IMG/VR virus record: IMGVR_UViG_2534681835_000039
DNA: 8,626 bases
Source of the DNA: a virus
Taxonomy: Duplodnaviria > Heunggongvirae > Uroviricota > Caudoviricetes
Reading direction: 5' to 3' (one strand)
Made by a program: the position numbers. Below are positions 1 through 6,000 of the stretch, one piece after another; positions within the stretch are counted from its first letter, which is position 1; each line of letters opens with the position of its first letter.

Positions 1-3000
1 ATGCTCACCGTTAAGCAGATTGAAGCAGCAAAGCCGAAAGAAAAACCATACCGCCTTCTCGATGGTAATGGCCTGTACCTTTATGTCCCTGTATCCGGGA
101 AAAAGGTATGGCAGCTTCGCTACAAGATTGACGGTAAGGAGAAAATCCTGACCGTCGGAAAATATCCGCTTATGACTTTGCAGGAAGCAAGGGATAAAGC
201 ATGGACCGCGAGGAAAGACATCTCGGTTGGCATCGATCCGGTAAAGGCGAAAAAGGCTTCGTCTAACAACAATTCATTTAGTGCGATTTACAAGGAATGG
301 TACGAGCACAAGAAGCAAGTCTGGTCAGTAGGCTATGCAAACGAACTTGCCAAAATGTTTGACGACGACATTTTACCTATCATCGGCGGCCTTGAGATTC
401 AGGATATTGAGCCGATGCAACTGCTGGAAGTAATCCGCAGATTCGAAGATCGCGGTGCAATGGAGCGAGCCAACAAAGCCCGCAGAAGATGCGGAGAGGT
501 TTTCCGTTACGCTATTGTCACCGGAAGGGCTAAATATAACCCGGCACCTGACCTTGCAGACGCCATGAAAGGATACCGCAAGAAGAACTTCCCGTTTCTT
601 CCTGCAGACCAGATCCCTGCATTCAACAAAGCACTGGCAACATTTTCAGGAAGTATCGTATCGCTCATTGCGACCAAAGTTTTACGCTACACAGCCCTAA
701 GAACAAAAGAGCTTCGTTCCATGCTATGGAAGAACGTCGATTTTGAAAACAGGATTATCACCATCGACGCCAGTGTGATGAAGGGCCGCAAGATTCATGT
801 TGTTCCTATGTCAGACCAGGTGGTTGAACTTCTCACTACGCTAAGCTCAATCACCAAACCAGTATCAGAGTTTGTTTTTGCCGGGCGCAACGATAAGAAG
901 AAGCCAATCTGCGAGAACGCGGTATTGCTTGTGATCAAACAAATCGGCTATGAGGGTCTGGAAAGCGGTCACGGATTCAGGCATGAATTCAGCACGATTA
1001 TGAACGAGCACGAATGGCCTGCTGACGCTATTGAAGTGCAACTGGCACATGCCAACGGCGGATCTGTGCGTGGGATTTACAACCATGCTCAGTATCTCGA
1101 TAAACGCAGAGAAATGATGCAATGGTGGGCGGACTGGATTGATGCTGGATTGAAATAAAACTAGAATACATTCAAATATATACTTTATATTTTTATAAGG
1201 AGAAAGTGATGGTAGCCACTAGGCTAAATTCAATACAAATAATGCGCGGTATTGCAGCATTAATTGTTGTTGCATTTCACATAAGATACAATTTATCTGT
1301 TTATGAGCAAAAAAATCTTGGAGACTTAATGTTTTCAAATGGAGAAGTAGGTGTATACCTTTTTTCTGTGATAAGCTGATTCATTATATCACTATCAACA
1401 AGAAGGAAAGAGTCGCCTTTAGAATTTAGCATTAAAAGATTACTTAGAATATATCCTCCATACATATTTTCTTTTGCAATACTGCTTTTTTTATTGAATA
1501 AAAATTATAGATTAATGGATGTAGTAAAATCATTAATACTAATACCATTAAACTCGCACGCCGCAGGTCCATATTACGGGTATAGTATACTCTTAGTTGC
1601 GTGGACACTTAGTTATGAGTTGTTCTTTTATTTTTGCTTTCTTGTATCAATGTCATTAAGCCAAAAATATAGAGCGGTAATATGTTCATTAATACTGTCA
1701 TCACTAATCATATTTGGCAATTATTATTTATTTGGATCGATTGGGGTAAATCCACACACAAGAGCATTTGATGGCGGTGGAATATTTGCAAGTATTATTT
1801 TCATAACAAACCCAATAATAATAAACTTTATATTAGGGATGATTGCTGAGTTTATTTATAGCAATACAAAAACCAACAACAAACTTTTAAACAAAGCAAT
1901 TAAAATGTTAGCCCCGATAGTTGCCGTAATATCAGTCTGGGGGATGCTATCACCTTCAATGTGGATTGGTGAAATGCAGTGGGCGATACCTTGCTTTGGT
2001 CTTGTAACCTCTTTGTCACTACTGGAGAAGTCTGGGGTTTCTTTTGAATTTCCAAGTCTTGTAAAAATTGGAGCAATGTCATTCTCAATATATCTAATAC
2101 ACCCAATAATTATCGAATTATTAAGCCAAAATATTTTGTTGTTTTTTGGCAGGATGGATTTACTAAGTTCTCAGTCATCATTTTGATTACAGTTTTTTCG
2201 GCAAGAATAATGTATGAAACAATTGAGATTCCATCACAAAAACTAGCCAGAAAGCTCATATCAAAAATAAGATGAAAAACTGCGATACCATTAAATTTGT
2301 GGTATCGCAGGTTGCCTAACCATCATACCAAGCATTGTTAAGAAACTGTGTAACTCTATTTCTTGATAGTTCAAATAGCTGAGTGCCATTTTGAACTCCA
2401 GACAGATTAAACCTGGTATTTGTGGTTAACATATCCCATCCCGTGGCAGCTGGTGACACATATATTTTGGTTGTAGCATTATAAATTATGTTTCCGCGAA
2501 GCCTAAGGTCTGAAATAGAACCTGCGCCATACACTTCAAGTGAAATTCCTTTGTTGGATGCTGGACATAAAATAGTGTTGCCAGAAGCAATAAAACCAGC
2601 CAGGGAACCAGAAGTTAGTATGTCTATACCATCTAAAAGAGTAGAGATGTTATTATTAGTGACCTTCACGTTTGATGTGTTTCCAGCGTCACCTGCCTTA
2701 ATGAAGTTTGTTGTGTCACTGGACCGGTTGTAGTCAACATTAAGCCCTGATATTATTGAAAATCTTAGGAAAAAACTATCAGCAGAGCTGTTACCAGAGA
2801 ATACATTTTCAGAAATATAAACATCTTCAGACATATATACATCTGCAAATGATTTACATGTTCCCTTTGCCCTGTTGCGGTTTATTTTGATGCGCTTACT
2901 ACCGCTACCATCATATGTCTTGATGAATAATGGGATTACAACAGCACCGCCGATCAGGTCGTTATCCGTAATTTCAATCTCATCCGCATGGTTTCCTATA

Positions 3001-6000
3001 TGAAATGCTTCTGTTCCATACTGACCTGCCGACAATATGTTCTTGTACACTTTGCCATACGAGGTATTGGCATGAGTATCTATGCCAAAGGTTTGACCAA
3101 CACCAGCGCCTTGAATGAAGTATCGTGCAGCAAATCCGATAATATTGTTATTATATACCTTGAAATTTGAAGCGGTGTGACCTTCGTCGGGTTCAATATC
3201 TATACCAGCTAATAGCGTATCACCTATGTAGTTTCCATGAATCTCAAACTGCCTAGTATCACTTCCGGCTGCAATACCCATCCTATTGGTTGTAATGATG
3301 GTGTTATGCCTTACCTTGAAATTTTTCGCGTTATAAACCAGGATGCCATCACCACGCTGCATCCCTACACCACCAATATTTTTGATATTACAATTTTGAA
3401 TTAACAGCCCATCCGTCTGTACATCGTAGTTTGCATAATCACCGAACCATATTCCTATGCCGCACTCACCGGATAGCATTGAAATTCCAATATCGTGAAC
3501 ATTCACGCCGTCTATAACGATATTGCTGCCACCGTACCCACGAATTCCTCCATCCAGGGTGCCTGTTATATCAACATCAATCACTTTGGCGTTGGAGATG
3601 TTAGCCATAAGTATCCCGGATTTCTCTTGCTGAGTTCCGCCATCAAATTGAAAGTTTAATGACCCGCTATGCATCACTTTATTACTTTTGTGGTTAATAG
3701 GTGAGCGAAGTTTTGAAACGAATCCGACGCCACCAAGTTTAACGCTAGGAGATTCAGAGTCTAATGCAGCGGATACAGCAGCATCGTTGAACTCTCCATC
3801 AATAGCACCCCATCCGCGAATGTCACCCTCTTCTCTCCACTGCTGAATTTTAATATGCTGATCCATCGATGGGATTAGAAGATATCCATTTGGATCCGCT
3901 AGCTCTTGTCTTAATTGGTCAGGGTCGTACTTCAACACATTAGGAAAATAAAACTGCTGCGCACCGTATGCATCATAAACAGCCATAGAATGGCCTTGCA
4001 CAGTTACGAACTTGGCAATCTGTCCGTTATATACCGGGTAACCAGCAGCGTTAATGATGATTGGTTGCGAAACAGGAACGTGAGAGCCATCTTCGTTCTC
4101 CACATAAACCTGAATCTGGTTTTCAGGGTTTACCGGGTCAGTGTCAATTTTTCCGATATAAATTTTGCCATTGGCAACCGCTTTAAAAGAACGCGCCATA
4201 GTGAAGAGTTGCGAAGGCATCGATACGATCACATTGGCTGTAATGTCTGTCATTTAATTTGCTCCAGATACAAGGAATCACCGAAGCATGGCTACGATGA
4301 ATTTTGGGCATAAAAAAACCCAGCCGAAGCTGGGTCGTTGCGTTGGTTATCTGTCAGTAGTTATGTACTGAAGGAGGTAATTCTTTATTCTTAAGTCTCA
4401 TCCATGCGGAAAGATTCGTTGGTCCGTCTGGCTCATTAATATCAACATCTCGTGTGTGATTGATTAAAACGTCTCTCGCCATTCCGATAACATACGAGAA
4501 CTCATGGCCATAGTCGTAGCATCTGCCGGAATAGTTCGATTGAATTTGTTTTAGCGCCAGATACAGTTCGCGGAATAATGCCTGTGAGCGGTTGGCATAA
4601 TCCCATAACCATACAAGGCTGTTTGCTTCTTTTGCAGAAAGCTCGTTGGTTTTCTTCTCTTGTTTGCCGATAAATTCACCTTCAAGCACTACCCTGTGGA
4701 TGTACTCTACGGCTTGCGGTATCTGAGATGCATCAAGCTCTTCAATACTTTCCACATTGAAACGCTGATGAATCATTGCATAAGCTTCTGGGTACATTAG
4801 ATGCTTTTTGCTGACTAGCATATTTACAGCATCACGAAGCGGAGTCCTGTCATCAACAGATGTTTTCTTACGTGCATTTTCTGCCTTTCCCTTTGTCCAG
4901 TAGTCATGCAGTACAGTAAAGCATTCTTCCTGGTACTGAATCAGTTTATCACGGATGTCAGCACGAACTTTCTCAGGGTTGATGCTGAACAGCCATCCAT
5001 TTAACTTCTTCAAAGGAAGGCAGAGTAGCTTACGAAGCTTCCCATCAGCGGCAACCATGTTCATATGAACACAGTTGAATTTGCTAATCTGCTTCATGAG
5101 TTTTGTTTGCTGCGTTGACCAGCTCATTCCAAGGTTTTCAACGATTGGCTTCATCGCAACATATGCAACTCCGGCAGCCATGGCGGTGATAATTTGCTGA
5201 CCGTTGAATGGTACATAAGAGGTGTTCACTGCTTCTAAAATTGCTATACTATTCATGTTGGTTTTTCTCCACGGATTTACTGACAACCGAAGCCCTGACT
5301 GTTCCCGCAGTTGGGGCTTCAACTTTACGCGCCAATGCGCCCTTCCTTCTTAAAGCTTTCCATTACTCTCTGATAAATCTCAGAGTTAACAGACCGACCA
5401 TTCTCTTCCGCCACCTTGCGGACCAAATCCAATACTTCTTTAGGCCACCGCAAATTGAACTGCGGCATCTTGCTCATTCCTTTCATATTCACCTCACAAT
5501 ATAGGTCCACCGTGGACCTATTGAGAATATAGTAGAGTGCTTCTATCATGTCAATACACTAACTTGGAGTGATGGCATGGCTAGAGATGATCCGCACTTT
5601 AACTTCCGTATGCCTATGGAAGTAAGGGAGAAATTAAAATTCAGGGCGGAGGCGAATGGGAGATCAATGAACTCCGAGTTGTTACAAATCGTCCAAGATG
5701 CTCTATCAAAACCATCGCCTGTGACTGGATATCGCGACGATGCAGAACGACTCGCTGATGAGCAGTCAGAGCTTGTTAAGAAGATGGTGTTTGATACGCT
5801 GAAGGATTTGTACAAAAAACCCACCTGAAGGTGGGTCCTATTTATTAGTCTTGCTTTGTTGATGGTATAAGAGATGCGTTTGCCTCTTTTGGCTTCAAGG
5901 TATACATCCCACCATTAAAAGGATCTACAGCAAGCCAACCAATTAACCCACCAAACACAAGGTTTCCACCAATATACCAGCCATTAGCATTGGCTTTGAT

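What the first reader, a model, noticed from the sequence alone, without database searches (positions are those of the whole stretch)
2316..4253. Mosaic tailspike: P22-type head-binding domain fused to a different receptor-binding beta-helix
Only the first ~115 aa match the conserved tailspike N-terminus shared by P22, Sf6 and HK620. Past the KYDPDQ boundary (about nt 3900-3910 on the minus-strand gene) the sequence is an unrelated beta-helix-like domain. This is the known domain-swapping hotspot that sets O-antigen or capsule specificity, so the C-terminal domain probably defines host serotype range and may be a distinct glycanase. The specificity cannot be read from the sequence by eye.
Basis: partly seen in the sequence, partly recalled or inferred. 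Interest (0 to 1): 0.45.

Follow-up and report, generated by a model that had tools for sequence, protein, structure and literature searches.

The report
O111-specific P22-type phage tailspike gene
This is an intact tailspike gene left in a decayed P22-like prophage of E. coli O111:H8; it is a real two-part mosaic, but its type and its O111 target have already been described and tested on close relatives, so it is ordinary.

Summary
ORF 2316..4253 (minus strand, 645 aa) has a full P22-type head-binding domain (aa 1-113, Pfam PF09008, E 4e-67). Directly after KYDPDQ (aa 108-113, window 3915-3932) it switches to a different right-handed beta-helix. The specificity can be assigned, and it is not new. 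The window is 100% identical to E. coli O111:H8 strain 8E. The C-terminal module occurs in 23 of 5,426 complete E. coli genomes, and all 23 are among the 60 that carry O111 wzx/wzy. The protein is 94.6% identical (93.7% over aa 123-645) to the Lederbergvirus prophage tailspike of O111 strain 110512. It is 92% identical to ECGD1 gp151 and 83% to STP55 TSP4. A 2023 paper places the 110512 and ECGD1 proteins together in an "O111 RBP subtype". The 110512 and STP55 receptor-binding domains each conferred O111 targeting when grafted onto other particles (2025 papers). Three things remain open or are small additions. The bond cleaved and the catalytic residues are unknown, and no close solved structure exists. 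The beta-helix gene is itself a patchwork of near-identical tracts shared with lytic myoviruses. In this strain the gene sits in an 8.6-kb prophage remnant that cannot make virions. Interest is low.

The parts
2316..4253 (-). Tailspike gene, 645 aa, intact (RefSeq WP_000129899.1, 'phage tailspike protein')
   Evidence: PHROG 19784 matches residues 1-645 against profile 1-645.
3915..4253 (-). N-terminal head-binding (virion anchor) domain, aa 1-113. It ends with KYDPDQ (aa 108-113, window 3915-3932), which is the module junction.
   Evidence: Pfam PF09008, E 4e-67. PDB matches to Sf6 and P22 N-termini. 81-94% nt identity to HK620, CUS-3, N7, epsilon34 and others over gene nt 1 to ~340 only. Motif coordinates.
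2319..3914 (-). Receptor-binding module, aa 114-645. It comprises a short helical neck, a right-handed parallel beta-helix and a small C-terminal beta domain, and belongs to the O111/O:35 type.
3066..3554 (-). Candidate catalytic stretch. D234, E263, R300, D302, R324, D352, E354 and D392/H394 are invariant and D356 is nearly invariant (motifs SGECG, RGDG, NRMG, GIDIEPD, GIDTHAN). They are spaced about one helix coil apart.
   Evidence: These residues are conserved in an alignment that reaches relatives of 23-37% identity. Coordinates. The catalytic role is an inference.
2794..3693 (-). Recombination tract, gene nt 561-1460. It has 3 mismatches in 900 nt against the lytic Justusliebigvirus ECGD1 gp151, with an abrupt break at nt 1461.
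3373..3894 (-). Tract, gene nt 360-881. It has 1 mismatch against the 110512 prophage allele.
2533..2675 (-). Tract, gene nt 1579-1721. It is identical to Kuttervirus STP55 TSP4.
2280..2310 (.). Hairpin CTGCGATACCA-N9-TGGTATCGCAG between the convergent tailspike and acyltransferase genes. A T-run follows on the minus strand, so it is a likely bidirectional terminator.
   Evidence: Read directly from the sequence. The scan missed it because the loop exceeds 8 nt.
4317..4336 (-). Strong intrinsic terminator (GACCCAGC-TTCG-GCTGGGTT followed by T7) between ant and the tailspike start codon.
1206..2275 (+). Acyl_transf_3 O-acetyltransferase-like gene at the lysogenic-conversion position, now a pseudogene. 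It has an in-frame TGA at 1377-1379 (GGA in other lineages) and a 1-nt deletion near the 3' end. G+C is low (31-34%).
   Evidence: phrog_3333, 'O-acetyltransferase'
1..1158 (+). Prophage integrase IntS, next to tRNA-Arg in the source genome.
4354..5828 (.). immI-like region: ant (4354-5256, minus), arc (5325-5486, minus) and mnt (5577-5828, plus).
   Evidence: Pfam P22_AR_N, P22_AR_C, Arc and Repressor_Mnt
6788..8626 (-). gp16-type DNA transfer (ejection) protein, 612 aa. It is the last phage gene before the deletion junction.
   Evidence: phrog_770, E 3.6e-278. A truncated host-side gene follows directly in strain 8E.

Best explanation
The gene encodes a Lederbergvirus (P22-like) tailspike of the already described O111 type. 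In a working phage, the N-terminal domain (aa 1-113) would dock the trimeric spike onto the tail. The C-terminal beta-helix (aa 114-645) would bind the colitose-containing O-antigen shared by E. coli O111 and Salmonella O:35. It most likely also cuts that polymer hydrolytically, so the particle can work down to the outer membrane. Candidate catalytic residues are the invariant carboxylates E263, D302, D352, E354 and D392. The gene arose by joining a P22-type anchor to an O111 receptor-binding module right after KYDPDQ. The same module circulates on other anchors in Justusliebigvirus, Kuttervirus and T7-like or other contigs. The helix-coding part has since been reshuffled by homologous recombination among these O111 alleles. 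In strain 8E the gene is a relic. It lies in an 8.6-kb prophage remnant (int to gp16) at tRNA-Arg, with no head, tail or late-regulator genes, and behind a strong terminator. It therefore probably makes no virion and little or no protein here. Shown: architecture, junction, fold class, O111 host association, near-identity to functionally tested relatives, mosaic tracts, remnant status. Inferred: trimer formation, hydrolase chemistry, catalytic residues, lack of expression.
For: Domain architecture. Source and remnant context. All 23 of 5,426 genomes with the module lie within the 60 genomes carrying O111 wzx/wzy (hypergeometric 8e-48, not corrected for clonality). Identities: 94.6% over the full length and 93.7% over the RBD to 110512, 91.9% to ECGD1, 83.3% to the grafted STP55 segment. 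Literature: 110512 and ECGD1 are listed as the O111 subtype (PMC10408124 Table S1). An R2 tailocin carrying the 110512 RBD gave a 4-log kill of an O111 strain (PMC11762384). The STP55 TSP4 C-terminus gave CBA120 plaques on O111 (PMC12737597). Named Salmonella homologues are from serovars Adelaide, Alachua and Monschaui, which are O:35 from my own knowledge. O111 and O:35 share the same O-antigen (Wang & Reeves 2000, title cited). The O-unit contains only Col, Glc, Gal and GlcNAc (PMC6436433), so a lyase is excluded. Acidic motifs are invariant down to 23% identity. A terminator lies upstream of the gene.
Confidence: 0.88

Rival explanations
1. The C-terminal module only binds the O111 O-antigen and does not cleave it, or it modifies it in another way such as removing a substituent.
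For: No enzymatic assay exists for this family. Fold searches cannot assign a reaction. The chimeric tailocin and phage experiments require recognition but not proven cleavage.
Against: Several carboxylates and a His are invariant on successive coils in relatives of only 23-37% identity, while the surrounding sequence has diverged. That pattern is typical of catalytic centres. All well-studied P22-like tailspikes with this fold are endoglycosidases (established knowledge: P22, Sf6, HK620).
Confidence: 0.12
2. The module recognises a surface glycan other than the O-antigen, such as a capsule or a common antigen, that merely co-occurs with O111 strains.
For: The 2023 study warns that some RBP subtypes track receptors shared across serogroups. 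Many carrier genomes are clonally related O111:H8.
Against: Carriers span O111:H8, H2, H- and NM strains and an unrelated 5.0-Mb chicken isolate, and all carry O111 wzx/wzy. The same module occurs in Salmonella serovars that share the identical O-antigen. Grafted RBDs retarget particles specifically to O111 test strains.
Confidence: 0.04
3. The intact ORF in a dead prophage is kept because the host has co-opted it, for example to trim its own O-antigen or as part of another particle.
For: The tailspike ORF is intact, whereas the neighbouring acyltransferase and ORF 6382-6810 carry inactivating lesions.
Against: ant, arc, mnt and gp16 are also intact, so the decay is simply recent and patchy. 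A strong terminator lies upstream, and the promoter scan found no promoter-like site there. This remnant form was found in only one complete genome.
Confidence: 0.04

Closest known systems
Lederbergvirus prophage tailspike of E. coli O111:H- strain 110512 (WP_136721029.1; '110512_Prophage_RBP', O111 subtype, PMC10408124; RBD used in tailocin R2-O111, PMC11762384)
   Same: Same length (645 aa), same architecture and same junction. 94.6% identical overall, 112 of 113 residues in the anchor and 93.7% over aa 123-645. Same neighbouring acyltransferase gene.
   Different: 35 substitutions, concentrated in aa 259-616. A different chromosomal site: dacD/sbcB in 110512, tRNA-Arg/intS here. The window allele carries a 900-nt tract nearly identical to ECGD1. 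This allele has not been tested.
Enterobacteria phage ECGD1 gp151 tail spike (AMM43477.1, Justusliebigvirus, lytic myovirus)
   Same: The receptor-binding module is 91.9% identical. Gene nt 561-1460 differ at only 3 positions. It is listed in the same O111 subtype.
   Different: It has an unrelated N-terminal anchor (PF18668-type, about 150-170 aa) for a contractile-tail baseplate, and a 146-kb virulent genome.
Salmonella phage STP55 TSP4 (UPU15645.1, Kuttervirus)
   Same: The C-terminal roughly 520 aa are 83% identical, with 143 nt fully identical. This segment conferred O111 plaque formation on CBA120.
   Different: It is a 1011-aa protein with a long branched-complex N-terminus, and is one of four tailspikes on a 158-kb myovirus.
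P22 gp9, Sf6 gp14 and HK620 gp9 tailspikes (solved endoglycosidases)
   Different: The beta-helix is only about 10-13% identical. The catalytic residues cannot be transferred. The substrates differ: Salmonella O:4/O:9, Shigella flexneri Y and E. coli O18A1, against O111 here.

Membership tests
P22-like (Lederbergvirus) tailspike, gp9 type | Complete N-terminal head-binding domain (Pfam PF09008) | tested here: met
   aa 1-113 match profile 1-113 of 113, E 4e-67. Sf6 and P22 N-termini match at E 1e-45 to 5e-65.
P22-like (Lederbergvirus) tailspike, gp9 type | Gene position downstream of the immI region (mnt-arc-ant) and next to the O-antigen-modification and int end of the prophage | tested here: met
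   Gene order is int, acyltransferase, tailspike, ant, arc, mnt ... gp16.
P22-like (Lederbergvirus) tailspike, gp9 type | C-terminal right-handed parallel beta-helix receptor-binding domain | tested here: met
   [not shown]
P22-like (Lederbergvirus) tailspike, gp9 type | Homotrimer assembled on a virion encoded by the same prophage | tested here: not met
   Trimer formation is not testable with these tools. The prophage in strain 8E is an 8.6-kb remnant without head, tail or late genes. This bears on function in this genome, not on protein family membership.
O111 RBP subtype (PMC10408124: at least 30% identity over at least 60% of the RBD to subtype members) | Sequence identity to subtype representatives 110512_Prophage_RBP and ECGD1_RBP | tested here: met
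   93.7% and 91.9% over the RBD. The representatives are named in Table S1.
O111 RBP subtype | Found in, or infecting, hosts of serogroup O111 | tested here: met
   The window comes from O111:H8 strain 8E. All 23 carrier genomes have O111 wzx/wzy.
O111 RBP subtype | Confers O111-specific recognition experimentally | not testable with these tools
   This was shown for the 110512 RBD and the STP55 C-terminus, but not for this allele.
O-antigen endoglycosidase (hydrolase) tailspikes | Catalytic carboxylate pair in a substrate groove of the beta-helix | tested here: inconclusive
   E263, D302, D352, E354 and D392 are invariant down to 23% identity. No coordinates, trimer model or assay were available.
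O-antigen endoglycosidase (hydrolase) tailspikes | Releases O-unit oligosaccharides from LPS | not testable with these tools
   No assay was found in the held literature.
[not shown]
   The O111 O-unit is Col2-Glc-Gal-GlcNAc, with no uronic acid (PMC6436433 Table 3). The similarity is fold only, at 11-14% identity.

The most novel reading that the evidence does not exclude
The intact tailspike gene in this dead prophage belongs to an actively recombining pool of O111 receptor-binding alleles that virulent myoviruses draw on, or donate to, while infecting O111 strains. The evidence is a 900-nt tract differing at 3 positions from lytic ECGD1 and a 143-nt tract identical to Kuttervirus STP55. On this reading, prophage remnants act as reservoirs for the host range of lytic phages. 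Separately, this sequence-isolated family, with only about five clusters among 1.84 billion representatives and no solved structure, could be a new class of endoglycosidase that tolerates colitose branches.
Probability: 0.35. Interest if true: 0.35.

Novelty: already known. Interest (0 to 1): 0.15.

Why it matters
The practical value is modest. The finding adds one more natural allele of an O111-specific receptor-binding domain, which is relevant to STEC O111 detection and to engineering tailocins and phages. It gives a clean example of two-level mosaicism: an anchor/RBD swap at KYDPDQ, plus later homologous shuffling inside the beta-helix between temperate podovirus and lytic myovirus genes. 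The real gap it exposes is biochemical. Nobody appears to have determined which bond of the colitose-branched O111/O:35 polymer this family cleaves, or solved its structure. The invariant carboxylates listed here are ready targets for mutagenesis.

Tried and rejected
- **PDB sequence search of the whole protein:** only the N-terminus matched, so there is nothing for the RBD.
- **Foldseek against the PDB:** only generic beta-helix hits, TM about 0.4 and E about 1e-5.
- **Capsule or other receptor:** considered and rejected on the wzx/wzy association, the Salmonella serovars and the published chimeras.
- **First homologue search:** failed because the frame was off by one base; repeated correctly.
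- **ECGD1, STP55 and 11128:** absent from the main text of PMC10408124. ECGD1 and the 110512 prophage RBP were found in its supplement.
- **PMC2258590 (O111 glycosyltransferases):** not held. The O-unit structure was taken from PMC6436433 instead.
- **3D clustering of conserved residues:** model coordinates are not exposed to scripts, so this could not be tested.
- **Promoter scan:** no promoter-like site immediately upstream of the tailspike start, and fewer sites overall than in shuffled sequence.
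Full report
**Observation.** The window has an uninterrupted ORF at 2316..4253 on the minus strand, 645 aa long.
- Pfam places a complete Head_binding domain (PF09008) on aa 1-113 (E 4e-67) and a Beta_helix region (PF13229) on aa 212-372.
- A sequence search of all PDB chains hits only the N-terminus. Sf6 gene 14 protein matches aa 1-120 (E 4.8e-65), and several P22 tailspike entries match up to aa 109-128. Nothing matches the remaining 520 residues.
- At DNA level, HK620, CUS-3, N7, epsilon34, Sf101 and others match only gene nt 1 to about 340, at 81-94% identity.
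- KYDPDQ is aa 108-113, window 3915-3932. Homology to a different set of proteins starts at aa 113/114.
- At least 24 other PHROG families share only the first ~110-160 residues, which shows the swapping hotspot directly. PHROG 19784 matches the whole 645 aa, so this architecture was already catalogued.

**Where the window comes from.** It is 100% identical to E. coli O111:H8 strain 8E, NZ_CP077465.1 1556921-1565546.
- The RefSeq annotation shows an 8.6-kb prophage remnant beside tRNA-Arg. Its genes are intS, an acyltransferase, the tailspike, ant, arc, mnt, a small lipoprotein-like gene, a frameshifted ORF and a 612-aa gp16-type DNA transfer protein.
- A truncated acyltransferase and the csc/dsd genes follow immediately.
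- There are no head, tail, lysis or late-regulator genes.
- A strong intrinsic terminator lies between ant and the tailspike start (4336 to 4317, minus strand). In P22, late transcription has to read through such a terminator by antitermination (established knowledge). I therefore infer that the gene is transcriptionally orphaned in this strain.

**What the C-terminal module is.**
- Gene nt 404-1916 match the tail spike gp151 of ECGD1 at 93.9% nt. ECGD1 is a 146-kb virulent Justusliebigvirus.
- The same region matches a 1011-aa tailspike of Kuttervirus STP55 at 80.6% nt.
- A phage contig isolated on E. coli O111 matches gene nt 713-1916 at 89.1% nt.
- Protein identities over the module are 91.9% to ECGD1 and 83.3% to STP55.
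- The closest full-length relative is the prophage tailspike of O111:H- strain 110512: 94.6% overall and 93.7% over aa 123-645.
- A search of 5.8 billion proteins found the module on several other N-termini. These include PF18668-type anchors on 38-46-kb contigs, a form containing PF03906, 913-915-aa forms on 73-kb and 143-kb contigs, and many P22-type forms in E. coli, Salmonella and Citrobacter.
- An exhaustive scan of 1.84 billion representatives found one cluster above 50% identity, four full-length relatives at 33-37%, and otherwise weak beta-helix similarity. The family is narrow and sequence-isolated.

**Specificity.**
- The module occurs once each in 23 of 5,426 complete E. coli genomes.
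- I took the O111 wzy-wzx genes from strain 110512. They occur in exactly 60 genomes, and all 23 carriers are among them. The hypergeometric probability is 8e-48, but this is inflated by clonality.
- The carriers include O111:H8, H2, H- and NM strains and an unrelated 5.0-Mb chicken isolate.
- Named Salmonella carriers are serovars Adelaide, Alachua and Monschaui. All are O:35 from my knowledge of the Kauffmann-White scheme. One protein also carries an Anatum label.

**Published evidence.**
- PMC10408124 Table S1 lists 110512_Prophage_RBP (Lederbergvirus, RBD from aa 123) and ECGD1_RBP (AMM43477.1) as O111, linked by horizontal transfer.
- PMC11762384 fused the 110512 RBD to the R2 tailocin and obtained a 4-log kill of an O111 strain.
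- PMC12737597 grafted the STP55 TSP4 C-terminus (nt 1471-3036) onto CBA120 TSP4 and obtained plaques on O111.

**Mechanism.**
- An AlphaFold2 model of aa 113-645 (pLDDT 82.5, pTM 0.84) shows a short helical neck, a long right-handed beta-helix and a small C-terminal beta domain.
- The O111 unit is Col(a1-3)[Col(a1-6)]Glc(a1-4)Gal(a1-3)GlcNAc (PMC6436433 Table 3). It has no uronic acid, which excludes beta-elimination and leaves hydrolysis.
- In an alignment reaching relatives of 23-37% identity, D234, E263, R300, D302, R324, D352, E354, D392 and H394 are invariant and D356 is nearly so. They lie in the motifs SGECG, RGDG, NRMG, GIDIEPD and GIDTHAN, about one coil apart. I read this as a conserved catalytic groove. 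That is an inference, because no assay or structure for this family turned up.

**A second layer of mosaicism.** Nucleotide comparison shows sharp tracts within the RBD.
- Gene nt 360-881 differ at 1 position from the 110512 allele.
- Gene nt 561-1460 differ at 3 positions from ECGD1 and break abruptly at nt 1461.
- Gene nt 1579-1721 are identical to STP55.
- The 3' third is 78-92% identical to each, apart from the STP55 tract and a final stretch (nt 1847-1934) identical to 110512.
- O111-type alleles are thus being shuffled by homologous recombination between temperate podovirus prophages and lytic myoviruses. This extends the horizontal-transfer picture of PMC10408124 but does not change it.

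**Verdict.** The object is nonetheless an already described kind: an O111-subtype Lederbergvirus tailspike, in RefSeq as WP_000129899.1. It is 94.6% identical to a functionally tested protein and sits in a decayed prophage. Interest is low. The open points are the enzymology and structure of this RBD family, and the role of prophage remnants as recombination partners of lytic phages.

Noticed in passing
window 1206-2275 (+); L005:13576-14700 (-); L006:7588-8654 (-): The Acyl_transf_3 (O-acetyltransferase-like, G+C 31-34%) gene beside the tailspike is broken in a different way in each of three prophage lineages. Strain 8E has a GGA to TGA nonsense codon at 1377-1379 plus a 1-nt deletion in an A-run. 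Strain 110512 has a 1-nt deletion in a T-run. HCM-22C-2 has a 1-nt deletion in another T-run. The cause could be relaxed selection, selection against modifying the O111 antigen, slipped-strand phase variation, or homopolymer assembly errors.
   Followed up: partly
window 8626 and beyond (L004:28626-29818): The prophage ends exactly at the start codon of the gp16-type gene. Where gp20 would be expected, a truncated acyltransferase and a truncated cscK follow. This is a deletion junction that removed all morphogenesis genes.
   Followed up: no
L005 (NZ_AP019761.1 2491465-2516999): In the other O111 strains the related prophage sits at a different site, between dacD and sbcB, about 60 kb from the O111 O-antigen cluster. 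In 110512 it carries IS1203 insertions in the DNA transfer and ant genes. That copy is therefore also defective.
   Followed up: partly
window 5845-6264 (-) and 6382-6810 (+): Two small accessory genes lie between mnt and gp16, where P22 carries sieA. One is a lipoprotein-like 139-aa protein (phrog_6823, weak PEGA match). The other is a signal-peptide-like 142-aa ORF (phrog_2651) that RefSeq marks as frameshifted. Related prophages carry 'Rap1a/Tai family immunity protein' in this region.
   Followed up: no
window 2280-2310: An 11-bp perfect inverted repeat with a 9-nt loop lies between the convergent tailspike and acyltransferase genes. It is conserved in all three lineages and is a likely bidirectional terminator. 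The scan missed it because of its loop length.
   Followed up: partly
proteins P0018, P0020, P0034, P0036, P0037, P0038, P0044, P0048: The O111-type module is also found fused to non-P22 anchors that the 2023 subtype table does not list for O111. These are PF18668-type proteins on 38-46-kb contigs, a 741-aa form with PF03906, and 913-915-aa forms on 73-kb and 143-kb contigs. This suggests at least five virion types carry it.
   Followed up: no
protein P0016: One Salmonella homologue, 88% identical, carries a 'serovar Anatum' (O:3,10) label among its source names. It is the only named exception to the O:35 pattern. It could be a mislabel, or a prophage whose host does not match its tailspike.
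   Followed up: no
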